From positions 1 to 33,972 of the IMG/VR virus record IMGVR_UViG_3300025277_000067: DNA of 33,972 bases; one strand, given 5' to 3'. This document shows, in pieces, positions 2-32,970 of this stretch (the stretch's first letter is position 1; every line of letters begins with the position of its first letter). A program made the position numbers and the translations under genes. Origin of the DNA: a virus. Its lineage: Duplodnaviria; Caudoviricetes. A model generated the notes under the pieces. That model had not been told where the DNA came from, made no database searches, and saw only the letters and a list, made by a program, of their open reading frames with translations.

Positions 2-1879
2 GGTTCTGGCAATTTAGGCACAGCTTTAACGACCGGAACGGATAACGTCGCCATAGGTGAGGCCGCACTTGATGCGGTGACTTCTGGCTCGGACAACACC
101 GCTGTCGGTGATAACGCTTTAGGAGCAAACACCACTGCCAGTAATAACACAGCAGTTGGTTCATTGGCCTTAACAGCCAACACCACAGGTGCAGGAAATT
201 CGGCTCTAGGGGAGAGTTCTTTAGATGCCAATACTACAGGTTCTGATAATACTGCCATTGGTAAAGGCGCACTTGGAGCTAATACGACAGCGAGTAACAA
301 TACTGCGGTGGGCAAGGATGCGATGCTTGCAAATACTACAGGCACTGCCAATGTCGCTGTCGGCAAAGGGGCTTATATAACTGGCACTACCGGAAGTAAT
401 AATGTTGCTATCGGAGATGCTGCTTTATATGCAAACACAACGGCAGATGGCAATACTGCCATAGGTAAATCTGCACTGGTTGCCAACACCACAGGTGCTT
501 CTAACGTAGCTGTTGGCTATTTAGCATTAGACGCTAACACAACCGCAAATTATATAACTGCTGTTGGAGAAAAAGCACTAAGTGCAAACACAACTGGCGC
601 AAAAAACACTGCTCTTGGTAGAGCCACATTACAAGCAATTACTACGCAATCAAATAACACCGCAGTAGGTTATAACGCTTTGTCAGGTGGTAGTAATGCC
701 GCAAGTGACAACACCGCAGTGGGCATGGACGCATTAACCGCCAATACCACAGGCGCTAACAATGTAGCAGTCGGAGTAAGTGTTTTAGCGGCAAACACTA
801 CCGCAAGCCGCAACACTGCTGTGGGCAAGGATGCGATGATTGCAAACACCACAGGCGCAGAAAATGTTGCAGTGGGGGCGTTAGCCTTGGACGCGAATAC
901 AACAGGCAACCAAAATGTTGCTGTGGGGGACGCGGCCCTGAGTACCGCAACTACAGCGACAGCCAACACAATGGTAGGTAAGTCGGCAGGAACTGCGATT
1001 ACTACGGGCGCAGAAAACGTGGGAGTGGGGACTTCAGCAATGGCGGCTGCTACCACAGGCGGCAGCAATGTTGCAGTGGGCTATATAGCTCTAGACGCAA
1101 ATACCACCGGAAGTAACAATACTGCTGTGGGAAGGGAGGCTTTATCAGCAAACACGACCGCAAATAACAACACGGCAGTCGGGTATGTGTCCGGGTCATC
1201 GAACACAACTGGCGCTGGTAATGTCAGCGTAGGAGAATCTTCCTTAAAGACCAACACTGAGGGCGATAACAATGTTGGAGTTGGCAAGAACGCCTTAGAA
1301 GCCACCACAGGAGACAGCAATACTGGTGTGGGCAAAGATGCCGGAAAGTCTATTACATCAGGCGATAACAATCTTTGTTTGGGCAGGGATGCAGGAATTG
1401 CAAGCTCTCCGGGCGGTGCGGTTACTACAGGAAACAACCAAATTTGTCTTGGTGATGAAAACATCACTCATGCACATATTCAGGTAGATTGGACAGTTGC
1501 CTCTGATGGTAGAGATAAAACAGATATTTCAGAGTTGAATTCTGGATTGAGTTTTGTCAACCAACTGAAGCCTGTCACTTATCGTTGGGATAAGCGTAGT
1601 CACTATAGCAAGGATCAAGACATTGCTCCTGATGGGCAATACAAGAGTGAGCAGCTTGACGTTGGATTTCTTGCCCAAGATGTAAATGAACTGGAAAAAA
1701 ATTACGGATTCAGCAGCGAAGAAAAAAGTAATTTGATTTCCAGTCTCAGTAATGACGGGAAAATGTATGGGCTTAAATACAACAAATTTGTACCTATGCT
1801 GGTTAATGCTGTTCAAGAGCTATCGGCTGAAGTAGAGGATTTGAAAGCGCAGCCCAAATGTAAATGTCAAGGAGATTAA
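2..1879 (+). CDS. Tail fibre/adhesin, 5'-truncated, with 14-aa YadA-head-like repeats and a C-terminal intramolecular chaperone (peptidase S74-type) domain
   Basis: The frame is open from base 2 (GSGNLGTALTTGTDNVAIG...), so the track start at 77 is not the true start. About 30 repeats of NTAVGxxALxANTTG. Autocleavage-type motif SDGRDKTDI, then LKPVTYRW, GFLAQDV and Y..FVPMLVNAVQELS coiled coil. Confidence 0.88.
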   Translation, partial: GSGNLGTALTTGTDNVAIGEAALDAVTSGSDNTAVGDNALGANTTASNNTAVGSLALTANTTGAGNSALGESSLDANTTGSDNTAIGKGALGANTTASNNTAVGKDAMLANTTGTANVAVGKGAYITGTTGSNNVAIGDAALYANTTADGNTAIGKSALVANTTGASNVAVGYLALDANTTANYITAVGEKALSANTTGAKNTALGRATLQAITTQSNNTAVGYNALSGGSNAASDNTAVGMDALTANTTGANNVAVGVSVLAANTTASRNTAVGKDAMIANTTGAENVAVGALALDANTTGNQNVAVGDAALSTATTATANTMVGKSAGTAITTGAENVGVGTSAMAAATTGGSNVAVGYIALDANTTGSNNTAVGREALSANTTANNNTAVGYVSGSSNTTGAGNVSVGESSLKTNTEGDNNVGVGKNALEATTGDSNTGVGKDAGKSITSGDNNLCLGRDAGIASSPGGAVTTGNNQICLGDENITHAHIQVDWTVASDGRDKTDISELNSGLSFVNQLKPVTYRWDKRSHYSKDQDIAPDGQYKSEQLDVGFLAQDVNELEKNYGFSSEEKSNLISSLSNDGKMYGLKYNKFVPMLVNAVQELSAEVEDLKAQPKCKCQGD

Positions 1880-3826: not shown

Positions 3827-4071
3827 TGGATATTGTACAGTTAGTTTCTGATTTTGGTTTTCCGGTAGTGATGGTAGTAGGTCTTGGCTATTTTGTTTAT
3901 TTTGTGTGGCAGACGATAACAAACAAGATAGACCCTGCTGTAGATGATATGAAAACAACGATTATTCGTCTTACAGATCAATTAAGGCTATTAGATCAAG
4001 ATATGATTAGGCTGAAGGAAAAAGTAAATACTGCTTTAGAGATAAAACAAGATCATGAAAAAAAGAGATAA
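3826..4071 (+). CDS. Small membrane protein (N-terminal TM helix plus coiled coil)
   Basis: DFGFPVVMVVGLGYFVYFVWQ TM segment. GTG start overlaps the previous stop (TAGTG); aligns without gaps to the upstream protein. Confidence 0.6.
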   Translation: MDIVQLVSDFGFPVVMVVGLGYFVYFVWQTITNKIDPAVDDMKTTIIRLTDQLRLLDQDMIRLKEKVNTALEIKQDHEKKR

Positions 4072-4528
4072 GATAATTTTAGTGACGTTTGTGCTAATCT
4101 CCCAAAACGTCTTCGCTGATCAAATAATACATCAGTTTAAAAATCCAAGTTTTAGTGGCATAGGAACATCATCTCATTACTTAACTATTGATGAACAAGA
4201 AAAAACCAGACGGGATGAGATAGTTGAAGACGTAGAGAGCGCACTAAAGGAAGCCGAAAGAGAGGCTGATAACACAACTCTCGCTAAGTTTTTAAGGAAT
4301 TTAGAGTCTAGAATATATTCTCAGCTTTCTAGAGATATAGCTGAATCCTTGTTTAATTCAGAGTCTGGTGGAACCGGAGGCAGTATAGTATTAGAAGGAA
4401 ACACCATTACGTTTGTAAATGATGGAGTAAATATCACCCTTACTGTCATTGATTCAGATGGAAATGTGACAGAGATAGTTATTCCTGTAGGTATATTCGG
4501 GATATGCACGGAAGACTGTGGAATTTAA
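4055..4528 (+). CDS. csgF: Curli assembly protein CsgF-like
   Basis: Signal peptide ending VFA, then the CsgF N-terminal motif HQFKNPSFSG; F..NLESRIYSQLS helix; C-terminal beta hairpins (ITLTVIDSDGNVTEIVIP); directly upstream of csgG. Confidence 0.85.
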   Translation: MKKRDKIILVTFVLISQNVFADQIIHQFKNPSFSGIGTSSHYLTIDEQEKTRRDEIVEDVESALKEAEREADNTTLAKFLRNLESRIYSQLSRDIAESLFNSESGGTGGSIVLEGNTITFVNDGVNITLTVIDSDGNVTEIVIPVGIFGICTEDCGI

Positions 4529-5346
4529 CATTTGTTGTTTTTATTTTTATAGTTCTAGAAGGATGTGCTTCGTATGCCCCTCTAGGCGCGACAGGTTGTA
4601 GCTCTTTATTAGAGTGCACCGAAGAGCCAAAACCATTAAGACCCACTCAGGAAAATCTTCTTAATCTTCCTATCCCAAAACAAAAAGCAGTAGTGGCTGT
4701 TTATAATTTTGATGATTTAACTGGTCAGAGAAAAAGCTCACAACAAATGGCTTTGTTCAGCACAGCCGTTACTCAAGGGGCAGATCAGTACTTAATCGAT
4801 GCCTTGAGGTCTGCTGGTAGTGGAAATTGGTTTGTTGTAGTTGAAAGGGCTGGTCTTGACGCCCTGACAAGAGAAAGGCAATTAATCAGGCAAACCAGAC
4901 AAACTTATGATGGAGAGGTAGGGAACACGCTGAAACCCTTGCTTTTTGCCGGTCTTTTATTTGAAGGTGGAATTATTCAGTATGATACCAATATAGAGAC
5001 AGGTGGAAACGGAGCAAGGTATTTAGGAATAGGCTCTAGTAATCAGTGGCGTAAGGATGAGATAACCGTATCTTTGAGGGTTGTTCTTGTACAGACTGGC
5101 GAAGTATTATTAAATACAATGGTGAGCAAAACTATTTTAAGTGCTGGTACTAGCAGGGATTTGTTTCGGTTTGTGGAGATGGGCACCGAACTTGTAGAAC
5201 TTGAGACAGGGCTTTCTCAAAATGAAGCAGTTGGGTACGCAACAAGAGCAGCTATAGAGGAATCTGTTTACCAAATAATAAAAAAGGGACTAGATCAAGA
5301 AATATGGGATTTTAATTACTCAGAATTGAAAGAGGAGGAAAGATGA
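4504..5346 (+). CDS. csgG: Curli secretion pore lipoprotein CsgG
   Basis: Lipobox VLEGC; AVYNFDDLTGQRK, FSTAVTQGA, WFVVVER.GL..L..ERQLIR, EGGIIQYDTN, TGGNGARYLGIG and VSLRVV.V.TGEVL motifs. Confidence 0.95.
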   Translation: MHGRLWNLTFVVFIFIVLEGCASYAPLGATGCSSLLECTEEPKPLRPTQENLLNLPIPKQKAVVAVYNFDDLTGQRKSSQQMALFSTAVTQGADQYLIDALRSAGSGNWFVVVERAGLDALTRERQLIRQTRQTYDGEVGNTLKPLLFAGLLFEGGIIQYDTNIETGGNGARYLGIGSSNQWRKDEITVSLRVVLVQTGEVLLNTMVSKTILSAGTSRDLFRFVEMGTELVELETGLSQNEAVGYATRAAIEESVYQIIKKGLDQEIWDFNYSELKEEER

Positions 5347-6026
5347 AAAATCTTCTAAAGATCTTATTGATTTTCGTTTCTCCGATAGTGTTTGGAGCAA
5401 ACAACGACATATACATAACTCAGTCAGGGACCGGGCTAACGCTAACAATCGACCAGATAGGCGATAGCAATGTTGTAGGTACATCTCAAACGAGAGCGAC
5501 GTTTACTGGCACAAGCATGACTGTAGATGTAGATCAAGTGGGCGACTCAAATACGCTGGCAGCATCGATAGCTCAGGGAAATAGCACCTCGTTTACTGTA
5601 ACAAGCACTGGCGATAGCAATGCTACTACTCTTGCGCTTGGGGCGACAGGCGATGTTGCTAATACAGATTTCGACTTGACCGAAACTGGAGACTCCAACG
5701 TAGTTGTTTTTACTCAGGGGGCAGCAGCAACGGCGACTGCGGGAAATCAGGATATAACCATTACCGGAACATCAAATAATATTAATGCTACTTGTGAAGT
5801 GGTTGGATGTATTAATAATTGGACGGTTGATGGCGATTCAAATGATATCGATACAACCCAGACCGGAAATGCCGATCACGAAATTACAGCCTCAATAACT
5901 GGAAATACGAACAATATCGATATAGATCAAACGAATAGTACAGGTAGCGTTTCTGGAGTAGTGGTCATAACATCGACTACGAGTAACGCCACTATTGATA
6001 TAGACCAATGCACCTCTGGCTGTTGA
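5343..6026 (+). CDS. Curlin-like secreted repeat protein 1 (CsgA/CsgB-like)
   Basis: Signal peptide, then repeated QxGxxN-type strands (IDQIGDSN, VDQVGDSN, TSTGDSN, TETGDSN, TVDGDSN); Thr/Asp/Asn/Gly-rich; follows csgG. Confidence 0.8.
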   Translation: MKNLLKILLIFVSPIVFGANNDIYITQSGTGLTLTIDQIGDSNVVGTSQTRATFTGTSMTVDVDQVGDSNTLAASIAQGNSTSFTVTSTGDSNATTLALGATGDVANTDFDLTETGDSNVVVFTQGAAATATAGNQDITITGTSNNINATCEVVGCINNWTVDGDSNDIDTTQTGNADHEITASITGNTNNIDIDQTNSTGSVSGVVVITSTTSNATIDIDQCTSGC

Positions 6027-7111
6027 TTTGTTTGGTATTTTTTTGTAATTCTGCGTATTCGCAGATAGGCAGAATCTCTGAATTAAGGGGCAATGGAGAG
6101 GTTTTACGGGAGAATCAGCAGGCTAGTTTGCCGGCAGAAGCTGAGCTCGGTATCTTGAGCTATGACGATGTGCGCACAGGGAACGGGCGAATCGGCATAG
6201 AGTTCCTAGACTCTAGCATTATTCGGCTTACTGAGCATTCTAAAATTGTTATTGATGAATATATCTATGACCCTGACCCCGATAAAGGCAAGCTCGCTCT
6301 TAACATGGCTTCAGGGACAGCGAGATTTATTACCGGGGCTTTGGGCAAGATCAATAAATCCCGTGTCTCTATCTCTACCCCAAGTGCCTCAATATTTATT
6401 AGAGGCACTGATTTTACGACCACAGTTGATGAGCTAGGACGCTCCTTGGTAATCCTTCTGCCAGACGCTGCTGGAAATTCATCTGGAGAAATTACAGTTG
6501 AAACTATGGCAGGCGTCGAGGTACTAAACCAGCCATATCAGGCAACAATGGTAAGCGTTGCCGAAAGCCCACCAACACAAGCCGTGCAATTAACTAACAT
6601 GTCATTAGCCTTTATAGATAATCTTCTTATCGTAAGTCCTCCAGAAGAAGTTCAACAAGCTATTGATGAGCAAGGCCAAAGTGCAAGTAACGTGCTAGAT
6701 GTAGACTTTCTTGAGGAAAACGACCTCGACGACGATGACGGACTTTCGGAAGACGAGCTACAAGATGAAATAACGCGGTTAGATGTCGACTTTTTATCTG
6801 TAGATTTTTTACAAGACTTGCTTGAAATGATGGAGGAAATTTCCGCAGGGAAAAAAGATCAAGCTGAAGAAGGCGAACTGGATGGAGTTCAGATAGAGGG
6901 AATTATTCCGGGATTCGACCAAGATGCACAGATGTACAGCTTTGTAGAAGGAGAGATCCTTGCGTTTTTCCGGCAGGTTGAAAACACTATTGATCTGGAG
7001 TTAGACAAGAATAATGCCTATAACCTGCAAATACTTTCTGCAGGAAAGCAGTTAAATATTGTGATTAACGGTGGAGGAGACAGTGAGATCATCATCAATC
7101 AGTCTGATTAG
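6008..7111 (+). CDS. Secreted FecR-domain protein with acidic linker
   Basis: Signal peptide; D.VRTGNG...I.F.DSS.IRLTEHS.I, G.ARFITG and ISTPSASIFIRGTDF FecR motifs; Asp/Glu-rich middle; beta-rich C-terminus. Confidence 0.85.
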   Translation: MHLWLLICLVFFCNSAYSQIGRISELRGNGEVLRENQQASLPAEAELGILSYDDVRTGNGRIGIEFLDSSIIRLTEHSKIVIDEYIYDPDPDKGKLALNMASGTARFITGALGKINKSRVSISTPSASIFIRGTDFTTTVDELGRSLVILLPDAAGNSSGEITVETMAGVEVLNQPYQATMVSVAESPPTQAVQLTNMSLAFIDNLLIVSPPEEVQQAIDEQGQSASNVLDVDFLEENDLDDDDGLSEDELQDEITRLDVDFLSVDFLQDLLEMMEEISAGKKDQAEEGELDGVQIEGIIPGFDQDAQMYSFVEGEILAFFRQVENTIDLELDKNNAYNLQILSAGKQLNIVINGGGDSEIIINQSD

Positions 7112-7802
7112 TTTTTTACTGATTTCTCAGTTGATATATGCATCAGACAATTCCGTAGAAGTGCGGACCAAGGGTAGTTCGTCATTAATACATATAGACC
7201 AGATAGGGACGTCTAATACGGCAAGAGTTTGGTGCGGATTGTCTGAAGGAAACTATACAACGCATAATTGTAATAATGCAGAAATTGATATAGATCAAAA
7301 TGGTACAAGTAATATTGCAAGAGCGTATAGTCAAGTAACTTTACATACAGGAAACGAATACAAAATAGAACAAACAGGCAATGATAATTTTGGATACATT
7401 GATGCCGATGATGATTTAAATGATATGGATGTTGTGCAAAACGGTGACAATAATGACGGAGAAATCTATATGCAGGGAGATGGGAATGTTTATAGTATTT
7501 CTCAAGATGGTGATGACAAGGAAGCCGAGATAAGGGCTTTTGGCAATTATTCTGATTTTAGTATAGATCAGTCAGGTAGCGGGGAGCATTACGCCAAAAT
7601 CTATGCAAGCGGCTATGCGGATAACAATGATGCTTCTATAACGCAAACTGGGAGTGGCGACCATTATATGAGGCTGAATTTCTATACGGATGACTACGAT
7701 GTGACTGCTAGTCAATCCGGAATTACCAATAAAAGTATTACAGTAAGTTACAACTGCGTCACTAATTGTAATAAAACAGTCACAATATCTCAGAGTGACT
7801 AG
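7083..7802 (+). CDS. Curlin-like secreted repeat protein 2
   Basis: Probable GTG start at 7083 after GGAGG; signal peptide; about 8 repeats (IDQIGTSN, IDQNGTSN, IEQTGNDN, VVQNGDNN, ISQDGDDK, IDQSGSGE, ITQTGSGD, ASQSGITN) mostly spaced ~22-26 aa. Confidence 0.82.
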   Translation: MRSSSISLISFLLISQLIYASDNSVEVRTKGSSSLIHIDQIGTSNTARVWCGLSEGNYTTHNCNNAEIDIDQNGTSNIARAYSQVTLHTGNEYKIEQTGNDNFGYIDADDDLNDMDVVQNGDNNDGEIYMQGDGNVYSISQDGDDKEAEIRAFGNYSDFSIDQSGSGEHYAKIYASGYADNNDASITQTGSGDHYMRLNFYTDDYDVTASQSGITNKSITVSYNCVTNCNKTVTISQSD

Positions 7803-9573
7803 ATATATTCAGCTTGGTGGGTTGCTTATATTATTAAGTATTCCATTTGTATGGAACCTGAGTTTTATAGAGACACTGAAACTAAAGACTTTTGATTCCC
7901 TAGTTTCTGAAAAACAAGCTTCTGGATATTTCTCAATACTTTCTATTAATGAGGAAGATATAGAAAGAGAGGGGGGGTATCCTTTTGGCCGGCAAAGACT
8001 CGCAGAGATACATAATGAGCTATTAGAGAAGGGAGCTATAGGCGTAGGGTGGGTTCTAGCTTTTCCACAACCTGATAGGTTTGGAGGAGATACAGAATTT
8101 GCTAGTGCTTTATCTGGGTCGCCAAGTGTTCTCGCAATGTTTGAGAACGATAACGGAAGCTACCCCGAAACAACAGGCACCGTTATTTTAGGGGAAGATA
8201 TTGGCGGTATTCTGGCAAGTGGCGTCATACAGAATATAGACCCGCTGAAAGAAAGCTCCAGTCAGGGGATAGCGGTTGCTAGAACTGATATAGATAATTT
8301 AGTCAGAAGACTTCCTCTATTGATGAGAACTCCAGATGGATGGGTTCCTGCTTATGGAACTGAGGTTCTAAAAATACTAGCAGGTGCAGATACTTACGTT
8401 ATAAGGACAAGTGAAAATGGAATAGAAGAAGTCAGGGTCCGGGGGCTTCCTCCGGTATCTGTAGACTCATTGGGTAGAAGATGGATTAGTTATGTAGATA
8501 CTCCAGAAACAAACTTATACGAAATGGATGTTGCAGATAAGTTTGTTTTTGTAGGGTTTACGGCAAGGGGCATAATGCCTCAAATTGCAGTACCAAACAA
8601 CAAGCTGCTTGAACCGCACAAAATACAGGCGGCTTTAGCAGAAAGCATTTTGATAGAAAATAGCCCCTATATACCGAATTGGGCGTTGGCGGCAGAAGTA
8701 TTGATATTTTTTGCCGGCACAATCTTGACAGTTGTTTTGATCAATTCTTTAGGGATAACGCTAGGAATAACATTAACCGGTCTATTGTTTACAGGGGTAG
8801 GATATTTAGGACTTGCCTTAATTCAGAGGGGTTTACTGGTAGATGTAACATGGGCTCTGATATCTGAATTCATTATTGCATCTGCCGCCTTCTACCTGAG
8901 ATTTCGTGAACAGTATAAGCTACGACAGGAAATCAAAAAGCAATTTGAACACTACCTTGATCCAAGGCAGGTTAAAAAGTTACAGAAGAACCCAGAGCTA
9001 CTAAAGCTCGGAGGCGAAAAGCGACTTGCTACTTACCTATTCACTGATGTAAGAGGGTTTACCTCTATGTCCGAGTCTTTAGACCCGGCGCAAGTTACAT
9101 ATATAATGAATAGAGCCTTGACTGCGCAGCAAAAGGCTGTGCAAAAACACGGCGGCATGGTCGATAAGTATATCGGTGATGCAATGATGGCAATTTTTAA
9201 TGCACCATTAGACTTAGATAAGCACGCACATGTCGCTATTGAGTGTTCACTAGATATTCTAAAAAATATGTCGGAGCTAAATATAGAACTCGCCCAAAGA
9301 AAATTACCGCCAGTGGCTATTGGTATCGGAATCAATACTGGAGAAGCGGTTATCGGGAATATGGGAAGTGAAATGAGATTTGACTATACCGCCATTGGAG
9401 ATGCAGTAAACATAGCTGCAAGGCTAGAATCTGCAACAAAAGAAGTTGGAGAAGATATACTTATAGGAAAAGATACTAAAAACTATTGTAGTTTTAAGCT
9501 AAAATTGTTAGAGCCTATAAAAGTAAAAGGTAAAGAAAAGTCTCTGGAAATCTATACAGTGGAGGAACGATGA
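7795..9573 (+). CDS. CHASE2-domain membrane adenylate/guanylate cyclase (class III)
   Basis: N-terminal TM, CHASE2-like periplasmic region (ILSINEEDI...G.YPF.R, LAFPQPDR, D.DNLVRRLPL), 3 TM helices, cyclase motifs FTDVRGFT, DKYIGDAMMA, GIGINTG and DYTAIGDAVNIAARLE. Confidence 0.93.
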   Translation: MTRYIQLGGLLILLSIPFVWNLSFIETLKLKTFDSLVSEKQASGYFSILSINEEDIEREGGYPFGRQRLAEIHNELLEKGAIGVGWVLAFPQPDRFGGDTEFASALSGSPSVLAMFENDNGSYPETTGTVILGEDIGGILASGVIQNIDPLKESSSQGIAVARTDIDNLVRRLPLLMRTPDGWVPAYGTEVLKILAGADTYVIRTSENGIEEVRVRGLPPVSVDSLGRRWISYVDTPETNLYEMDVADKFVFVGFTARGIMPQIAVPNNKLLEPHKIQAALAESILIENSPYIPNWALAAEVLIFFAGTILTVVLINSLGITLGITLTGLLFTGVGYLGLALIQRGLLVDVTWALISEFIIASAAFYLRFREQYKLRQEIKKQFEHYLDPRQVKKLQKNPELLKLGGEKRLATYLFTDVRGFTSMSESLDPAQVTYIMNRALTAQQKAVQKHGGMVDKYIGDAMMAIFNAPLDLDKHAHVAIECSLDILKNMSELNIELAQRKLPPVAIGIGINTGEAVIGNMGSEMRFDYTAIGDAVNIAARLESATKEVGEDILIGKDTKNYCSFKLKLLEPIKVKGKEKSLEIYTVEER

Positions 9574-21531: not shown

Positions 21532-22689
21532 ATGGCTTTATATACTGGAAGAAATCCTTCGCTGCCGCCACCGCGACCAATTCAAGTCCCCCCAAATAAA
21601 AGACCCCCTAGACCTAGCCCTAGTCCTCTGGGAGATCATTTAGCAAGGATGTATGACCGTGCTCCGGGGATAGCTTCTTTAGTTAATCCCCCAAGAACAG
21701 ACCCCGGTGGGCAAGCCGATAGAGAAAAATTAATGGAGATGCAAAGGGAGACTTACCGAAGGTTCTTATCTCCACCTTCAGACGACGGTGGTGGCGGTGG
21801 CGTCGGGGCTAACCCACGTCCACCTTCATATCCAGTATATCCAGCATCGACGACTCCACGTCAAGAAACGCTAAATGATTATACGGTAGTAGCCCAGGCA
21901 CATGGTCTACCTGAATCTGCTTATATATCAGAACATAATGATTTCTCTGATAGAGACTTTATTGACTCAATCTCTGGAGATAGGGATTATATTGACTCGC
22001 TTTTAGATCAGGAGAAACACTTCATTTTTAAGGATGATCTTGGACCCGGACCACCGGCTGCCGGCGGTTTTGGGATAGAGGGAATTCCCCTTAGATGGGC
22101 TCCTCCTTCTTTATTAGAAGCCGGAGAGGAGACAGTAGCTCCTCCTGCATTTGATCCGAGTGGTCTTCAAGCGAGGTTAGATGCTCTAGAGAATAGAGAA
22201 ATTCCAGGATTTGATCCGAGTGGTCTTCAAAGGCGGTTAGGTGCTCTAGAGAATAGAGGTGGATTTGATCCGAGTGGTCTTCAAGGGCGGCTAGGTGCTC
22301 TAGAGAATAGAGGTGGATTTGACCCGAGTGCTCTTCAAAGGCGGCTAGGTGCTCTAGAGAATAGAAAAATTCCAGGGTTTGATCCGAGTGATCTTCAAGG
22401 GCGGCTAGGTGCTCTAGAGAATAGAGAAATTCCTACGTTTGATCCGAGTGGTCTTCAAAGGCGGCTAGGTGCTCTAGAGAATAGAAAAATTCCAGGGTTT
22501 GATCCGAGTGATCTTCAAGCGAGGTTGGGTGCTCTAGAGAATAGAAAAATTCCAGGATTTGACCCAACTAATTTACAACAACAAATTGAAGAACTTCGAG
22601 GGGCATTAGGTAGACAATCAATGCCTGCAGCGAGTGCTGCAAGAACAAGAAGAAATCTAGGTGGTCTTGTCGGCATCCTACCAACTTAA
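21532..22689 (+). CDS. Pro-rich protein with tandem short coiled-coil repeats
   Basis: 385 aa; Pro-rich N-terminus; 7 full copies plus 1 degenerate copy of FDPSxLQxRLGALENR(xIPG/GG). Confidence 0.7.
   Translation: MALYTGRNPSLPPPRPIQVPPNKRPPRPSPSPLGDHLARMYDRAPGIASLVNPPRTDPGGQADREKLMEMQRETYRRFLSPPSDDGGGGGVGANPRPPSYPVYPASTTPRQETLNDYTVVAQAHGLPESAYISEHNDFSDRDFIDSISGDRDYIDSLLDQEKHFIFKDDLGPGPPAAGGFGIEGIPLRWAPPSLLEAGEETVAPPAFDPSGLQARLDALENREIPGFDPSGLQRRLGALENRGGFDPSGLQGRLGALENRGGFDPSALQRRLGALENRKIPGFDPSDLQGRLGALENREIPTFDPSGLQRRLGALENRKIPGFDPSDLQARLGALENRKIPGFDPTNLQQQIEELRGALGRQSMPAASAARTRRNLGGLVGILPT
22150..22580 (+). repeat. Coding tandem repeat of 60/54 bp units
   Basis: Units start at 22150, 22210, 22264, 22318, 22378, 22438, 22498 and 22558; core TTTGAYCCGAGTGNTCTTCAA...GCTCTAGAGAATAGA; all lengths are multiples of 3. 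Confidence 0.95.
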
Positions 22690-27625: not shown

Positions 27626-29118
27626 TGTGGAACATTGTGCTTGGTCCACCTGGGACTGGTAAAACTACTTATTTATTAAACAAAGTAGAACAGTTTCTAG
27701 AATCAGGTATAAGGCCAGAAAAACTAGGTTATGTTGCTTTTACTAAGAAAGCAGCAAACGAAGCACTAACAAGAGCAATAGCAAAGTTTGGTCACGACCC
27801 TGAAAAACTTATTTATTTCAGGACGCTTCATTCCTTATGCTATTATTGGCTAGGGCTTAAAAGAAGTGACGTCTTAACTAGAGGTAATTTGAGAGACTTC
27901 AGTAAAACGATTGGGGAAAGAATTGGTAGTGCCTGGGATGGTGAGAATCTAATGTCTCTTAATACTAAAGGAGACACTATGTTATTCTTAGAAAATATGG
28001 CACGTAATCGGTGCGTAGGTTTTAGAGAACATTGGAATAATGCAGATTCAAATATATCGTGGTTACATTTTGACTGGTTTATCAATAACTATTCAAAGTT
28101 TAAACAGAATAACTTTTTAGTAGACTATACGGACATGTTAGAAATGTTTCTTGAGTCAAAAGGTTCCCCCCACTTAGATATATTAATAGTGGACGAGGCC
28201 CAAGATCTTTCTACTCTACAGTGGCGTTGTGTAGAAAAACTAGCTGAAAATGTAAAGGAAATTTATATCGCAGGAGATGACGATCAAGCAATTTACCGTT
28301 GGGCTGGTGCAGATGTAGAGCATTTTATAGACCTAAAGGGTAAAACCACCTACCTGAAGCAATCTTATCGCGTACCTAGGAAAGTACACGATGTAGCACT
28401 AGGGGTAGTCAAGCGTATAAGTAATAGAAAGGAAAAAGTTTGGGAACCTAAAACAGAAGAAGGTTCGGTTAATTACCACACTAATTTTGAGCATGTGGAT
28501 ATCACAAAAGGAGAGTGGTTATTTTTAGCAAGGAACAATTATCTATTAAACGCAGTAGAAGAATACTTAAAGATTAATGGTCGGGTGTATCAGAGGAGTA
28601 ATAAATCTTCTGTTTCTGAAAATTTAATTGCCTCCATTAAAGACTGGGAAAACTTACGCAAAGGGGCGTCCATCGAGGCTGCAAAGGTACGAAAAATATA
28701 TAGGTACATGAAGGCCGGGAAAGGGGTTAAAAGGGGCTATAAGACGCTTAAAACGGTCAGAGACGACCTTAATTTATCCCTTACCGAGTTAAAAGCGGAC
28801 CATGGGCTATTAGTTGATTGTATCTGGCATGAATGTTTTGATTTAATTGGTAATACTCAAAGGGAATATGTTATATCTTGCCTAAGACATGGAGAAAAAT
28901 TACTCTCTTCTAAAATACGGTTGAATACTATACACGCCTCAAAAGGAGGAGAGTGTGAGAACGTGGTTTTATTAACTGACCTAGCAAATAAAACATGGGA
29001 AGAACTCTACTATAATCCAAATAATGAATGTCGAGCGTTTTATGTTGGTATTACTCGAACTATAGATAATCTACACATAATACGGGGCAAAACTCGTAAA
29101 GAGTTTTTATTTATATGA
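27625..29118 (+). CDS. UvrD/Rep-like SF1 helicase
   Basis: GPPGTGKT, AFTKKAA, FRTLHS, VDEAQD, GDDDQAIY, QSYR, TIHASKGGE and YVGITR motifs. Confidence 0.93.
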   Translation: MWNIVLGPPGTGKTTYLLNKVEQFLESGIRPEKLGYVAFTKKAANEALTRAIAKFGHDPEKLIYFRTLHSLCYYWLGLKRSDVLTRGNLRDFSKTIGERIGSAWDGENLMSLNTKGDTMLFLENMARNRCVGFREHWNNADSNISWLHFDWFINNYSKFKQNNFLVDYTDMLEMFLESKGSPHLDILIVDEAQDLSTLQWRCVEKLAENVKEIYIAGDDDQAIYRWAGADVEHFIDLKGKTTYLKQSYRVPRKVHDVALGVVKRISNRKEKVWEPKTEEGSVNYHTNFEHVDITKGEWLFLARNNYLLNAVEEYLKINGRVYQRSNKSSVSENLIASIKDWENLRKGASIEAAKVRKIYRYMKAGKGVKRGYKTLKTVRDDLNLSLTELKADHGLLVDCIWHECFDLIGNTQREYVISCLRHGEKLLSSKIRLNTIHASKGGECENVVLLTDLANKTWEELYYNPNNECRAFYVGITRTIDNLHIIRGKTRKEFLFI

Positions 29119-29699
29119 TCAACTTTTTAAAGGGAAAATTAAAAGGGTACGACCCGGCCATAAAGAATTGGGACGAACCAACCACACGTGAGTTTAACGG
29201 TGAAAAGGTTGAAGGGCGACCAACAAAAGGGTACGGAACAAAAACCTTTGTTTACGCAGGAAAAACCTACAAACCTACAAAATGGACCCCTTCTATTTTA
29301 CAGGTAAAAATGGCCACTGAATCGCTAGTCTCTAAAGAATTAGATAGGATTGTCAGGTTTAATTTTTGTTTGTGTGGGCTTTATAAAACGGGGCAAATAA
29401 GTATCCCTCATCATTCAGACACAGTACCCACATTAGAAGATTTAGTAGTGGGAGTATCTTTTGGTGCTTCGAGAATATTGGAATGGAATCAATACTATTA
29501 TCAAATAAAAAGGGAAAGTAATACCAGCAAAATCAATATCCTCCATGAAGATAACTATCTAGGAACACAACAATATCTATTAGAAGATGGAGATGTATAC
29601 ATCTTTGATGGAAATTCTCAAATGACCAGTACTCATGCAATACCGATTATGGAAGATGTGGGGGAGAGAATTAGTCTCACATTCAGAACAGGATTGTGA
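29115..29699 (+). CDS. AlkB-like 2OG-Fe(II) dioxygenase
   Basis: HSD (HxD), VSFGASR, LEDGDVYIF, THAIP and ERISLTFR (RxxxxxR) motifs. Confidence 0.85.
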   Translation: MINFLKGKLKGYDPAIKNWDEPTTREFNGEKVEGRPTKGYGTKTFVYAGKTYKPTKWTPSILQVKMATESLVSKELDRIVRFNFCLCGLYKTGQISIPHHSDTVPTLEDLVVGVSFGASRILEWNQYYYQIKRESNTSKINILHEDNYLGTQQYLLEDGDVYIFDGNSQMTSTHAIPIMEDVGERISLTFRTGL

Positions 29700-29841
29700 G
29701 AAAATTTTTAGCAAGATTCCTATACTTCCATTTTACTTGTAAAGTAAAATAGAAAGGTAACTCCATTCAAATTAGATTCAAATATACGCTTGCTATTAGC
29801 TTTGTCCTCTATTTAATAAAAAGTAAAGGTGTACAACAACA

Positions 29842-30690
29842 ATGACTTCAGACATAGAAGCAGCGGAGCATCGTTTCTTTCGCTATATAAACGAAAGACA
29901 TAGGATTTATCTAAAACGTCAGGAGGGAGAACCTTTTCCATGGACTGAGGATAAGATACTTCAAACCTACAGTTTCTGTAATGTATTCAGGGAGTTAGAC
30001 AAGGTCACTATTTGGATACGAAAAAATTGGAGGGAACCCTACGCCGATCATCCAAATTTGCCTTTTGCCATGTCCATGGCTCGCCAAATAAATTGGCCAG
30101 ATACCCTAGAAGAAATAGGCTTCCCTTATTACTGGAACCCTGAAAGAACTAAAGAAATTATGCAAGCTAGAATGGACAGAGGAGAAAAAGTTTACACAGG
30201 AGCGTATATGTTAACCGGTACTTTAGGAGGGACTAAAGTACAACAAACTGTAGATAAAATTCTCACCCCTGTGTATCATAACCCTCCTGAAATAATACCG
30301 CACTCCCTTAAAGAAACTTGGAAAAATTATCTCCCCTATGCTGGTTTCAGCGGGTTTATGTCCTATGAAGTCGTTACCGATTTACGTCACACCCGACACC
30401 TAGAAAATGCTGAAGACATTATGACTTGGGCTAACGCTGGTCCAGGAGCAAAACGAGGGTTAAATAGAATACACGGTAGATCTCTTAAGCAAGCTATTAA
30501 AGAAGATCAACTTACCCAAGAAATGAAAAGTTTACTCACTAACTTTAACCAGAATATTCTATTCCTTCTCGATAAAGAACTGGAGATGAGAGAAATAGAG
30601 CATTGTCTTTGTGAATTTGATAAGTACGAAAGAGTTCGTTTAGGGGAAGGCAGACCTAGATCAAAATATAAATATGCAGGGGAAAAATAA
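29842..30690 (+). CDS. aGPT-Pplase clade 1-like helical protein (thymine hypermodification-associated, HhH-glycosylase-like fold)
   Basis: ERHRIY..R..G...PWT.D.IL..Y.FCNVFRE.D, F.SYEVVTDL, GPGA.RGL and IEH.LCEFDKY motifs. Confidence 0.8.
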   Translation: MTSDIEAAEHRFFRYINERHRIYLKRQEGEPFPWTEDKILQTYSFCNVFRELDKVTIWIRKNWREPYADHPNLPFAMSMARQINWPDTLEEIGFPYYWNPERTKEIMQARMDRGEKVYTGAYMLTGTLGGTKVQQTVDKILTPVYHNPPEIIPHSLKETWKNYLPYAGFSGFMSYEVVTDLRHTRHLENAEDIMTWANAGPGAKRGLNRIHGRSLKQAIKEDQLTQEMKSLLTNFNQNILFLLDKELEMREIEHCLCEFDKYERVRLGEGRPRSKYKYAGEK

Positions 30691-30999
30691 ATGCCGGCAG
30701 ACTTTACCCATATTCAGGAATTGGCAGACGGAGACGTAACTAAACTAAGAGAGGCAGAAAAAAGTTACGGGGACAGTTGGCGAATGCGAGGCGGGGTAGG
30801 GGCTATGATGATGCTAGCACGTAAGTGGGACAGAATAGAAAAGCAAGTCAAGGATACCGGCTATGATATTTTTCAGGCTATAGACATAGATCAATCTGAT
30901 TCTGGAATTTTAGATGATATCAGAGACTTAAGAAGATATTTATTGCTTGTAGAATCTTACACCGGTACACGTTGGAGTAATACTAGAGAGGAAAAGTAA
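30691..30999 (+). CDS. Nucleotide modification-associated (Nmad1/DUF1599, MazG-like all-alpha NTP pyrophosphatase) protein
   Basis: SYGDSW, RKWDRI and DDIRDL..Y pattern; context in the modification cluster. Confidence 0.65.
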   Translation: MPADFTHIQELADGDVTKLREAEKSYGDSWRMRGGVGAMMMLARKWDRIEKQVKDTGYDIFQAIDIDQSDSGILDDIRDLRRYLLLVESYTGTRWSNTREEK

Positions 31000-31001
31000 A
31001 A

Positions 31002-31178
31002 ATGTCAGTAGAAATAACAAAAGAAGATCAGGATAAATACAATATAGTTCTCGAAGCCATAAGGGAAAGCGGTGCAATGAATATGTTTGGTGCCCCACGA
31101 TGGCTTGAGGAAGAGTACGGTTTATCGCGTGTTGAAGCTAGACAAATCTTTAAGAATTGGACCGCCACATATGATTAG
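31002..31178 (+). CDS. Small hypothetical protein, 58 aa (not in the ORF track)
   Basis: MSVEITKEDQDKYNIVLEAIRESGAMNMFGAPRWLEEEYGLSRVEARQIFKNWTATYD; GAGG RBS upstream; fills the gap almost exactly. Confidence 0.75.
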   Translation: MSVEITKEDQDKYNIVLEAIRESGAMNMFGAPRWLEEEYGLSRVEARQIFKNWTATYD

Positions 31179-31190
31179 ACTGGAGAAAGT

Positions 31191-31973
31191 ATGAAAATAT
31201 ATATTCCCACAAGGGGAAGACCCTATAATCAGGAAACTTTAAGGTGGTTTCCTAAAGAAATGCAGAGAGACGGATCAGTTGTATTAGTAATAGATGAAGA
31301 TGAAAAAGATAAATACCACAACTACCCAGACACACCTAGAATGGTTGTACCTAGTGATTGCATAGGTATTGGTCCAAAACGTAAATATATAGTAGAAAAT
31401 GTAGAAGACCCTCGTATAGTTATGTTGGATGATGACTTACGGTTCTATATTCGTAAAAGTCCTATTGATTGGCACCTTCGATATCTTCAATCGAGCGAAT
31501 ATCCTGCTCTATTCGGCTTGCTAGATGAGTGGATGGATCAGGGTTATGCTCATGTTGGTATAAGCGCAAGAGAAGGTAACAACCATGTAAAAAACTTATC
31601 GGTAGAAAATACTCGGTATATGCGTGTGTTGGGATATAACCTAGAAGTATTCCCTGATAGTGTGGAGTGGGGAAGAACTAGAGTAATGGAAGACTTTGAC
31701 ATTGCCCTACAACTATTAAGAGAAGGTAAAGCAAATAAGGTAAGCTATTACTACGCTCAAGGGCAAAAATCATCAAACGCAGAAGGAGGCTGTAGTGAGT
31801 GGCGCACAATTGACGTCCACAATGAAGGGGCGCAAAGACTACACGACCTTCACCCTGATCATGTTAAACTTGTGGAAAAACAAACTAAAACTGCTTGGGG
31901 CGGTTTACCCCGTAAAGATGTGAGAATTAGTTGGAAAAAAGCATATAAGGACGGAATAAATGAAAGTTCTTAA
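31191..31973 (+). CDS. GT-A glycosyltransferase, TET/JBP-associated (TAGT/JGT/GREB1-like) type
   Basis: IYIPTRGR, GIG.KR.YI, MLDDD (DxD), EDFD..LQLL..G and N..GGC motifs; GGAG RBS. Confidence 0.8.
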   Translation: MKIYIPTRGRPYNQETLRWFPKEMQRDGSVVLVIDEDEKDKYHNYPDTPRMVVPSDCIGIGPKRKYIVENVEDPRIVMLDDDLRFYIRKSPIDWHLRYLQSSEYPALFGLLDEWMDQGYAHVGISAREGNNHVKNLSVENTRYMRVLGYNLEVFPDSVEWGRTRVMEDFDIALQLLREGKANKVSYYYAQGQKSSNAEGGCSEWRTIDVHNEGAQRLHDLHPDHVKLVEKQTKTAWGGLPRKDVRISWKKAYKDGINESS

Positions 31974-32970
31974 TGTAAGGAACGCACATGATGCTCTTTT
32001 ACGGGGTCTTGATTTTTTATATACAAATGGAGTAAAAGCAGAGAGCCGAAATGGAGTAGTTTTTCAGGCTCCTACGCCGGTAACTACCGTCTACAGTAAG
32101 CCGAAAGAGAGGGTTTTATTTTGGAAAGAGCGTAACGCAAACCCGTTCTTTCATTTTATGGAAGCCTTGTGGATGATAAAGGGAGGGTATGACCTCGAAT
32201 TTGTTTATCAATATAACAAAAGAATGAAAGAATTCAGCGATGACGGCCAAACCTTGCACGGTGCTTATGGTTGGAGATGGCGGTCTTGGTTTTTTCGTGA
32301 TCAAATACCAATCATAATTAAAAGACTAAAAGAGAATCCAGAAGATAGAAGATCTGTATTACAAATGTGGGATCCTGTTGAAGATTTAGATAGAGACGGT
32401 GCTGATGTCCCTTGTAATACTTGTGTCTATTTCAAGATAGACCTAGAGGGAAAATTACAAATGACTGTTTGTAATAGATCCAATGACATAATTTGGGGGG
32501 CTTACGGAGCAAACGTAGTGCATATGTCTATGCTACAGGAATATATGGCTACGGCTATTGGTGTATCTGTGGGTAAGTATTATCAAATCAGCGATAACTA
32601 TCATGCTTATAATGTGGTGTTTGAACCATTGCTTAATAAATTTATAGAACAAGACGCAATGGACTTTTTTACACAAAAAAGATTTCTTGCTTTAAACCCC
32701 TATACAGCAGAAATGGTAAAACCGTACCCTATAGTCAATACAGATATACAAATATGGGACTTGGATCTATTGGGATTCTTCGATAGAAAACCATTTGACC
32801 ATACTATATATGAAGACCCTTTCTTTACACACGTTGCCGCACCGATACAAAATTCTTGGTGGTTATATAAATCAGGGCAGATTGAAGAAGCAATGATTGA
32901 AATACAAGAATGTAAAGCAGATGATTGGCGTAAGGCTTGTTGGGAATGGTTGGGTAGAAAATCTAACTAA
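31960..32970 (+). CDS. Thymidylate-synthase-fold enzyme, probable dUMP hydroxymethylase
   Basis: SRNG, NPFFH..E.LW, YG.R, DQ......L...PEDRR, PCN (catalytic Cys), RSNDIIWGAYGAN and NYHAY motifs; RSND and PCN differ from canonical ThyA RSCD and PCH. Confidence 0.8.
   Translation: MKVLNVRNAHDALLRGLDFLYTNGVKAESRNGVVFQAPTPVTTVYSKPKERVLFWKERNANPFFHFMEALWMIKGGYDLEFVYQYNKRMKEFSDDGQTLHGAYGWRWRSWFFRDQIPIIIKRLKENPEDRRSVLQMWDPVEDLDRDGADVPCNTCVYFKIDLEGKLQMTVCNRSNDIIWGAYGANVVHMSMLQEYMATAIGVSVGKYYQISDNYHAYNVVFEPLLNKFIEQDAMDFFTQKRFLALNPYTAEMVKPYPIVNTDIQIWDLDLLGFFDRKPFDHTIYEDPFFTHVAAPIQNSWWLYKSGQIEEAMIEIQECKADDWRKACWEWLGRKSN

What the first reader, a model, noticed from the sequence alone, without database searches (positions are those of the whole stretch)
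29115..32970. Thymidine hypermodification cluster that may make glycosylated 5-hydroxymethyluracil (base J-like)
Seen: between the helicase and nuclease/PolA genes lie AlkB-like, aGPT-Pplase1-like, Nmad1/MazG-like, 58-aa, TAGT-type glycosyltransferase and TS-fold genes; the last two overlap (31960/31973). Known: phages such as SPO1, M6, ViI and phiW-14 incorporate 5-hmdU made by a dUMP hydroxymethylase. The characterised hypermodifiers phosphorylate it and add amino-acid-derived groups. TAGT/JGT-type enzymes glycosylate TET/JBP-generated 5hmC (phages) or 5hmU (base J, kinetoplastids). Inference: here a nucleotide-level hydroxymethylase, not a TET/JBP, feeds the glycosyltransferase, and the MazG-like protein removes dTTP/dUTP. 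The product would be a sugar-modified 5hmU, possibly with a second modification from the aGPT-Pplase1-like protein.
Basis: partly seen in the sequence, partly recalled or inferred. Interest (0 to 1): 0.85.

Follow-up and report, generated by a model that had tools for sequence, protein, structure and literature searches.

The report
Phage sugar-thymine cluster with thymine-making core
A marine phage carries genes that likely put hydroxymethyluracil into its DNA, likely hang a sugar on part of it and probably turn the rest back into thymine; three of these genes also sit in bacteria where neither known thymidylate synthase is found, which points to a possible third route to DNA thymine.

Summary
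The cluster is real. In an HTVC023P-type marine phage, a thymidylate-synthase-fold gene with the dUMP-hydroxymethylase signature (Asp at L143, Asn at N177) lies with a TAGT glycosyltransferase, a clade-1 aGPT-PPase (M6 gp55 family, function unmeasured) and an Nmad1-like protein. No hmU-DNA kinase or amino-acid transferase is found in 12 near-complete TAGT-type relatives; across 101 loci glycosyltransferase and kinase never co-occur. Sugar-modified hmU is the likely product (unmeasured). The AlkB-like and 58-aa genes are not core. The gene set is in print (Wittmers 2022) and this scan met it three times before on other DNA. New here: the same three core genes, without glycosyltransferase, sit in 16 bacterial genomes in which ThyA, ThyX and thymidine kinase are not found (104 of 106 family relatives without the trio have ThyA or ThyX; thyA is missing from its usual place beside folA). 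SPO1 and SP8 lack aGPT1, and SP8 keeps hmU throughout. So aGPT1 most likely turns hmU back into thymine rather than adding a second group. That would answer an old question of phage biochemistry and imply a third cellular route to thymine. All chemistry is inferred.

The parts
31960..32970 (+). dUMP hydroxymethylase-type thymidylate-synthase homologue (core)
   Evidence: Pfam/PHROG; 47% identical to M6 gp58; D149/C152/D176/N185 = L143D, C146, D169, N177 positions
29842..30690 (+). clade-1 aGPT-PPase (PF18723), HhH-glycosylase fold with invariant Cys257; predicted hmU-to-T enzyme (core)
   Evidence: distribution
30691..30999 (+). Nmad1/DUF1599-like all-helical protein; nucleotide-supply step, kinase or pyrophosphatase undecided (core)
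31191..31973 (+). TAGT-family GT-A glycosyltransferase, predicted to glycosylate hmU in DNA (exchangeable decoration module)
   Evidence: PF20691; invariant R10, D80-D81-D82, D168; mutual exclusion with kinase
31002..31178 (+). 58-aa ORF in the slot that holds a dUTPase in the closest relatives; not core
29115..29699 (+). AlkB-like 2OG-Fe(II) oxygenase; mobile neighbour, probably DNA repair, not core

Best explanation
The phage likely makes 5-hydroxymethyl-dUMP with its TS-fold enzyme, likely replicates its DNA with hmU in place of thymine, and then likely splits the hmU two ways: the TAGT enzyme is predicted to put a sugar on a fraction of sites, and the clade-1 aGPT-PPase probably reduces the rest to thymine. 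The predicted virion DNA holds T plus a glycosyl-oxymethyluracil (base J if the sugar is beta-glucose), like M6's T plus 5-NedU, with the glycosyltransferase standing where M6 has kinase plus amino-acid transferase. Shown here: family membership, active-site residues, gene linkage, absences in genomes. Inferred: all reactions, the sugar, the reductant, and the role of the Nmad1-like protein (most likely supplying hm-dUTP).
For: TS: Asp three residues before the catalytic Cys in 91 of 92 distinct homologues; Asn at N177 and Asp at D169 in 92 of 92. By the published rules (PMC13326640) that means dUMP substrate, hydroxymethyl product, and not a 5-hydroxy-dCMP synthase. Best cultured hits are M6/YuA-type enzymes. 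GT: R...DDD...EDF motif shared with JGT and DNA-acting phage GT-A enzymes (bioRxiv 2023.12.21.572611). PF18748 and PF18724 found in 0 of 22 TAGT-type records, 12 of them at least 90% complete, while the 3 kinase-type controls rang. Of 101 distinct aGPT1+TS loci: GT only 85, kinase only 9, both 0, neither 7; the labels switch repeatedly on the aGPT1 tree. GT relatives at 52-53% identity sit beside ParB + TET/JBP, with no C5-methyltransferase or TS found in these partial contigs; ParB-linked dioxygenases are described as T-dioxygenases (PMC13229309). aGPT1: the top fold match is the PaMx11 glycine:DNA transferase (Z 11.4, rmsd 3.8, 213 aligned), and its E-x-x-L-C257 aligns with the transferases' E-T-V-L-C. 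That family forms an exocyclic methylene which borohydride reduces to T (PMC8989533). M6, ViI, PhiW-14 and SP10 convert all hmU to T or a hypermodified base, and M6's kinase phosphorylated only about 23% of hmU in vitro. SPO1 and SP8 have the hydroxymethylase but no PF18723. 16 of 16 bacterial genomes with chromosomal aGPT1 + TS + tandem Nmad1 lack ThyA, ThyX over cut-off and thymidine kinase, and keep folA. In a family sample of 111, 0 of 5 trio genomes versus 104 of 106 others have ThyA or ThyX.
Against: No reaction was measured. The only TAGT role stated in the papers read for a cultured T-even phage is adding a second glucose to glucosyl-hmC (PMC13390438). A hydroxyl is a poor leaving group without phosphate, and no reductant or redox-cofactor site is evident. 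The bacterial trio is equally compatible with hmU-containing or otherwise modified cellular DNA, or with dTMP formation at nucleotide level. The 16 trio TSs are one clade, so they are not 16 independent events; 15 of the 16 are MAGs and completeness was not reported. aGPT1 also occurs beside a dCMP-type TS (Microbacterium phage GreenIvy, Asp at 177) and alone in 36 of 77 cellular loci, so the family has wider uses. The locus sample was enriched for TAGT by the queries. No dCMP deaminase was found in this phage group, and no dNMP kinase among the ORFs scanned in two complete relatives. The host is unknown.
Confidence: 0.45

Rival explanations
1. Sugar-hmU is made as above, but aGPT1 adds a second group (an amine or thiol) to hmU or leaves it; the trio bacteria would then carry hmU or a hypermodified T throughout their chromosomes.
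For: Same fold and catalytic Cys/Glu as amino-acid:DNA transferases. SP10 makes glutamyl-T and has only the clade-1 protein in Table 3 of PMC5889632.
Against: M6 gp55 was dispensable for the glycine-transfer step. Known transferases need a phosphorylated base and no kinase is present. A wholly substituted bacterial chromosome would need many host adaptations (general knowledge).
Confidence: 0.22
2. The core trio makes dTMP or dTTP at nucleotide level (TS alone, or TS then aGPT1/Nmad1); only leaked hm-dUTP, or none, reaches DNA, and the GT decorates that fraction or another target.
For: The trio replaces thyA in bacteria that keep folA, the simplest reading of which is a dTMP source.
Against: The trio TS has the same D/C/N/N signature as M6 gp58 and nests among phage hydroxymethylases. 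aGPT1 has a DNA-glycosylase fold. M6-type phages are reported to convert hmU to T in the polymer (PMC8989533).
Confidence: 0.15
3. The sugar is a transient activating group, as phosphate is in M6: GT glycosylates hmU and aGPT1 displaces the sugar, so little glycosylated base remains in virions.
For: Kinase, GT-A, GT-B and a SAM-methyltransferase occupy the same slot beside an unchanged aGPT1.
Against: The trio bacteria have aGPT1 with no TAGT (0 of 5 tested) and no kinase (0 of 16). RSL1 has three TAGTs plus genes annotated as sulfotransferase and APS kinase, which fits an elaborated final glycan.
Confidence: 0.08
4. The GT does not act on hmU itself (second-sugar transferase, or protein or envelope target) and the phage DNA holds only hmU and/or T.
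For: T6-type TAGT is assigned as second-glucose transferase; PHROG names the family so.
Against: No other GT was found among the ORFs scanned in two complete relatives; the gene overlaps TS and swaps with the hmU-DNA kinase.
Confidence: 0.1

Closest known systems
M6/YuA and PaMx11 thymidine hypermodification clusters (dUMP hydroxymethylase gp58, 5-HMUDK gp54, AADT gp51, aGPT-Pplase1 gp55; PMC8989533, PMC5889632)
   Same: Orthologous TS (47%) and clade-1 aGPT-PPase (42%) next to PolA.
   Different: No kinase, AADT, PLP or rSAM enzyme; a TAGT glycosyltransferase instead; Nmad1-like protein in place of DUF3310; no dCMP deaminase.
HTVC023P-type pelagiphage TS + aG/PT-PPlase1 + 5'-deoxynucleotidase + beta-glucosyl-HMC-alpha-glucosyltransferase cluster (PMC9599517)
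   Same: Same gene set in the same phage lineage (PolA 49-52% to 023Pt_psg01, HTVC027P, HTVC023P; curli module).
   Different: The passages read only note that the GT 'broadens functionality'; they give no product, no note of the missing kinase and no role for aGPT1.
Alphaproteobacteria phage PhiJL001 gp19/gp22/gp24; Brevibacterium phage LuckyBarnes gp38-41; Ralstonia phage RSL1 ORF229-237
   Same: Cultured phages with aGPT1 + Asn177-type TS + TAGT and no kinase in the locus.
   Different: No measured base was found for any of them in the papers searched; LuckyBarnes has two TAGTs, RSL1 three plus sulfation genes.
Base J synthesis in kinetoplastids (JBP1/2 + JGT) and phage TET/5mYOX + GT-A systems
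   Same: GT-A of the same family acting, by prediction, on a 5-hydroxymethylpyrimidine in DNA.
   Different: hmU comes from the nucleotide pool, not from oxidising T in DNA; the sugar and linkage are unknown.
ThyA and ThyX thymidylate synthases
   Same: The bacterial copy of the core trio occupies their role by distribution.
   Different: TS has the hydroxymethylase signature and always travels with an HhH-fold Cys enzyme and Nmad1; T would arise after replication.

Membership tests
dUMP hydroxymethylase (SPO1 gp29/M6 gp58 type) | TS fold with catalytic Cys | tested here: met
   C152, 92 of 92
dUMP hydroxymethylase (SPO1 gp29/M6 gp58 type) | Asn at N177 (dUMP) and acidic residue at L143 (hydroxymethyl), Asp kept at D169 | tested here: met
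   N185, D149, D176; rules from PMC13326640; L143 read by counting from the Cys, since MAFFT gapped that column
dUMP hydroxymethylase (SPO1 gp29/M6 gp58 type) | forms hm-dUMP | not testable with these tools
   needs assay
TAGT/JGT-type DNA glycosyltransferase | PF20691 over cut-off; R...DDD...EDY/F motif | tested here: met
   82.7 bits vs 27.5; R10, D80-82, E167-D168-F169
TAGT/JGT-type DNA glycosyltransferase | TET/JBP partner supplying the hydroxyl | tested here: not met
   0 of 70 TAGT loci have TET nearby; TS supplies it instead
Base J pathway | beta-D-glucose on hmU | not testable with these tools
   sugar unknown
5-HMUDK/AADT thymidine hypermodification pathway | P-loop 5-hmdU DNA kinase (PF18748) | tested here: not met
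   0 of 22 TAGT-type records, 12 near-complete; controls rang. The window's own phage is known over about 41 kb only
5-HMUDK/AADT thymidine hypermodification pathway | clade-2 amino acid:DNA transferase (PF18724) | tested here: not met
   the window's protein is PF18723
aGPT-Pplase1 (PF18723, M6 gp55) | profile match, HhH fold, conserved Cys with nearby Glu | tested here: met
   171.9 bits
MazG-like NTP pyrophosphatase / Nmad1 (DUF1599) | profile or fold match | tested here: inconclusive
   no Pfam hit in 48 members; Atlas DUF1599 11%; fold rows not significant
HTVC023P-type pelagiphage | PolA and gene content | tested here: inconclusive
   PolA 49-52% to members but also 49% to a record labelled with a gammaproteobacterial host; no phylogenomics run; host not shown

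The most novel reading that the evidence does not exclude
aGPT-Pplase1 is the long-sought enzyme that converts hmU to thymine inside DNA, and TS-type hydroxymethylase + aGPT1 + Nmad1 is a third, post-replicative route to thymine. Some bacteria took it from phages and lost thyA, so they make no dTTP and form their thymine on the chromosome, while marine phages plug a glycosyltransferase into the same core to make a base-J-like sugar-thymine not found in the papers searched.
Probability: 0.45. Interest if true: 0.95.

Novelty: new variant of a known kind. Interest (0 to 1): 0.8.

Why it matters
How M6, ViI, SP10 and PhiW-14 turn DNA hmU into thymine is reported as a fact, with no enzyme named in the papers read (PMC8989533). 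The distribution found here names a candidate and a cultured bacterium in which to test it. Free-living bacteria without ThyA, ThyX or thymidine kinase are unexpected: either they make T after replication or their chromosomes carry hmU or a modified T, and both would be new for bacteria. For the phage, a glycosylated hmU built from the nucleotide pool would be a phage counterpart of base J in a marine phage lineage described as abundant (PMC9599517). The exchangeable slot (kinase, GT-A, GT-B, methyltransferase, GT + radical SAM) predicts several further unmeasured bases.

Tried and rejected
Kinase hidden elsewhere in the genome: not found in the same phage's continuation (L004, 7.2 kb past the window) or in near-complete relatives. 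Reading PF18723's name ('5-hmdU DNA kinase, helical domain') as a kinase: rejected; no P-loop family matches the protein and M6's kinase is the separate gp54. dCMP- or 5-hydroxy-type TS: rejected by N185 and D176. AlkB as the hmU source or core member: present in 26 of 70 loci at three positions. Homology between the Nmad1-like protein and DUF3310: not detected (hhalign probability 0.3%); only their mutual exclusion stands. PDB sequence searches with the GT and aGPT1 profiles found nothing significant; Foldseek gave no E <= 0.001 for either model. Promoter/terminator scan of 29600-29900 was at chance level. Sequencing runs: no RNA holder listed; no reads were laid. The 58-aa ORF could not be searched in the ESM Atlas, so its family stays open. 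The Fisher P values (2e-7, 5e-9) overstate the case because kin are not independent. The careful tree did not finish; the quick tree was used, one row dropped, five rows on long branches. No complex prediction was run. Iyer et al. 2013 and the PhiJL001 genome paper were not held; from recall the former predicted base-J-like phage systems and may cover this arrangement.
Full report
Setting. The window is a 34-kb virus record with curli csgF/csgG/FecR/cyclase genes and a helicase-primase-PolA block. The same phage continues in IMG/VR contig L004 at 99.99% identity for 7.2 kb beyond the window, through PolA to the small terminase, with no kinase. Its PolA is 49-52% identical to 023Pt_psg01, HTVC027P, DSL-LC04 and HTVC023P, so it belongs near the HTVC023P-type marine podoviruses; the host is not shown. 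All 20 listed sequencing runs that hold the cluster are DNA or unlabelled, 19 of them marine or seawater metagenomes, 13 marked as a possible source.

Observation. The six ORFs and the 14-base GT/TS overlap are as described. Family calls: AlkB-like, PF18723, no family, no family, TAGT, thymidylate synthase.

The TS. Its best cultured hits are M6/YuA-type enzymes at 47-48%; its best solved relatives are the CMP hydroxymethylase entries 5b6d and 5jnh (E 1e-20). In 92 distinct homologues from the fetched loci (130 sequences over 250 aa, collapsed; the window's own and M6 gp58 included), Asp stands at the L143 position in 91, and C146, R166, D169 and N177 equivalents in all 92. PMC13326640 (abstract and sections 4, 24, 28, 29 read) gives N177 as dUMP-specific, acidic 143 as hydroxymethylating and D169N as marking 5-hydroxy-dCMP synthases. 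Inference: hm-dUMP synthase.

The glycosyltransferase. PF20691 at 82.7 bits, with invariant R10, D80-D82, D168 in 42 aligned sequences, the motif shared by phage DNA GT-As and JGT (bioRxiv 2023.12.21.572611, passages; its supplements are closed). PF18748 kinase was found in 3 of 33 records, all three with a P-loop ORF already seen in the cluster, and in none of the 22 TAGT-type records (12 at least 90% complete). PF18724 was over cut-off in 1 of 33, a kinase-type locus, with one weak hit in a GT-B-type record. Two complete relatives (G002, 60,000 of 60,325 bases; G006) were read: 154 ORFs listed, 44 scanned against Pfam, with no second GT, dNMP kinase or reductase among them. Of 141 distinct aGPT1 cores, 101 had TS and at least 3 kb on both sides: 85 have a GT only (70 TAGT, 15 GT-B-like; the second GT-B group is assigned by hhalign, probability 95%), 9 a kinase only, 0 both, 7 neither, 6 of these with a SAM methyltransferase. 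On a quick aGPT1 tree of 58 rows, well-supported branches force at least 6 changes of the TAGT label and 5 of the kinase label. The sample is enriched for TAGT by my queries, and an earlier scan note (e1-9779380, not tested) may describe a kinase-plus-GT locus, so the exclusion may not be absolute. Three GT relatives at 52-53% lie beside ParB and TET/JBP in partial contigs with no C5-methyltransferase or TS; PMC13229309 (passages) classes ParB-linked enzymes as T-dioxygenases. Against: in T6-like phages TAGT is assigned as adding a second glucose (PMC13390438, passages).

The aGPT-like protein. It is the orthologue of M6 gp55 (42%), not of the transferase gp51. (Table 3 of PMC5889632, passages, swaps the two M6 labels; Pfam and PMC8989533 agree with my reading.) The model (pLDDT 93) matches PaMx11 gp46 best (Z 11.4), then HhH glycosylases. 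C257, E258 and K261 are invariant in 85 rows, and E253 (76 E, 9 Q) and C257 align with the transferases' E-T-V-L-C. PMC8989533 (passages and sections 16, 17, 21, 23) reports that gp55 is not needed for glycine transfer and that borohydride traps the transferase's methylene as thymidine. It also reports that the kinase phosphorylated about 23% of hmU, that M6, ViI, SP10 and PhiW-14 virions hold no hmU but T or hypermodified T, and that SP8 keeps hmU throughout. SPO1 and SP8 have the TS but no PF18723; M6, Nachito and PhiJL001 have both.

The bacterial trio. A GTDB scan with the aGPT1 alignment returned 77 loci. In 16 of them aGPT1, a TS with the same D-x-x-C-N and N177 signature and a tandem Nmad1-like gene form a three-gene run with no GT or kinase. 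In six of these loci examined more closely the neighbours are ordinary chromosomal genes (recA, udg, flhA, transporters), GC content is mostly similar to the flanks, and the proteins are 37-55% identical to the window's. In all 16 genomes the trio TS is the only PF00303 match (E about 1e-20), ThyX is not over cut-off (one weak hit), thymidine kinase is not found and folA is present. All 10 comparison genomes with aGPT1 outside the trio have ThyA (5) or ThyX (5), and 3 of the 5 ThyX users lack folA. In 111 genomes of one family, 5 carry the trio and have neither synthase; of the other 106, 103 have ThyA, 1 ThyX only, 2 neither. At the thyA-folA-hflKC locus, thyA is present in G066 and G071 and missing inside the contig in trio genomes G054 and G057. 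No PF18748 in 16, no TAGT in 5 tested. The 16 TSs form one clade (support 1.0) nested among phage enzymes: likely one capture from a phage, then spread to genomes labelled Hyphomicrobiaceae, Bradyrhizobium, Hyphomonadaceae and Verrucomicrobiales. One is an isolate; completeness values were not reported. These cells need a T-position nucleotide, so the trio must supply it; T formed by aGPT1 is the reading that also explains M6 and SP8.

The 102-aa protein. All-helical model (pLDDT 89), weak MazG-like matches, DUF1599 lead. Present in 63 of 70 TAGT loci; among 101 loci it and DUF3310 never co-occur (84, 13, 0 both, 4 neither). DUF3310 is linked to T7 gp1.7 nucleotide kinase (PMC10700055, passages). 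A weak homologue (E 1e-4) is SPO1 gp30, annotated 'DNA replication', near the hydroxymethylase. [quoted passage not shown]

What is known. PMC9599517 (passages and first part of Discussion) lists TS, aG/PT-PPlase1, a 5'-deoxynucleotidase and this GT in HTVC023P-type phages without naming a product. PhiJL001, LuckyBarnes and RSL1 are cultured phages with the same kinase-less layout in the locus. Searches for a measured glycosylated hmU in phage DNA and for aGPT-Pplase1 returned no such report in the listings and passages seen. A search for a hydroxymethylase route replacing thyA/thyX returned no paper and no scan note. Subscription papers and Iyer et al. 2013 were out of reach, and no supplements were read. 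Also seen: PMC11472151, PMC11946847, PMC8256090 (passages) and PMC12686479 (first of six parts). The scan reported the phage cluster three times before.

Verdict. Real cluster; a new variant of thymidine hypermodification with a likely sugar-hmU product (about 0.65 alone). The added value is the assignment of aGPT1 as probable hmU-to-T enzyme (about 0.55) and the bacterial trio that makes it testable. Combined mechanism 0.45; interest 0.8.

Noticed in passing
L302-L306, L308-L314, L321, L331, L336, L339 (e.g. L305:5866-8727): Chromosomal aGPT1 + hydroxymethylase-type TS + tandem Nmad1 in 16 bacterial genomes in which ThyA, ThyX and thymidine kinase are not found.
   Followed up: yes
L032, L034-L036, L038-L040, L043-L044, L049 (e.g. 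L039:8016-8867): A class I SAM methyltransferase fills the GT/kinase slot beside aGPT1 + TS; could make a methoxymethyl-uracil (inference).
   Followed up: partly
L189, L190, L193, L197, L202, L203, L206, L212, L055: TAGT followed by a radical SAM/SPASM gene between aGPT1 and TS; other loci pair a GT-B with an FkbM methyltransferase (L028, L033, L042).
   Followed up: partly
L290:1654-10750 (phage RSL1): Three TAGTs, nucleotidyltransferases, genes annotated APS kinase and sulfotransferase next to aGPT1, TS and Nmad1: predicts a sulfated glycan on T.
   Followed up: partly
L292:3515-8112 (Microbacterium phage GreenIvy): aGPT1 beside a dCMP-type TS (Asp at 177) and two distant TAGT-like genes: the module may also work on hmC.
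   Followed up: partly
L130-L132: ParB + TET/JBP + cytidylyltransferase-cupin + TAGT (52-53% to the window's GT) with no TS or C5-methyltransferase in the partial contigs.
   Followed up: partly
L388:3963-4643 (SPO1 gp30): Weak homologue (E 1e-4) of the Nmad1-like protein near the SPO1 hydroxymethylase; also in SP8.
   Followed up: partly
L326-L342, L366-L378: aGPT1 homologues without TS, GT or kinase nearby in alphaproteobacteria, haloarchaea and DPANN archaea, mostly with the LCE motif.
   Followed up: no
window 4055-9573: Curli module csgF, csgG, curlin, FecR, curlin, CHASE2-adenylate cyclase, as described for this phage group (PMC9599517).
   Followed up: partly
window 21532-22689 (repeats 22143-22562): 385-aa ORF with tandem peptide repeats of about 18-20 residues; no confident family.
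   Followed up: no
window 77-1879: Repetitive tail-fibre-like protein with a C-terminal S74 intramolecular chaperone.
   Followed up: no
L098:7879-8349 and L120:10196-10615: Relatives often add a phrog_624 gene directly upstream of aGPT1 (49 of 70 loci) and a cytidylyltransferase-like gene near PolA (19 of 70); neither is in the window or L004.
   Followed up: no
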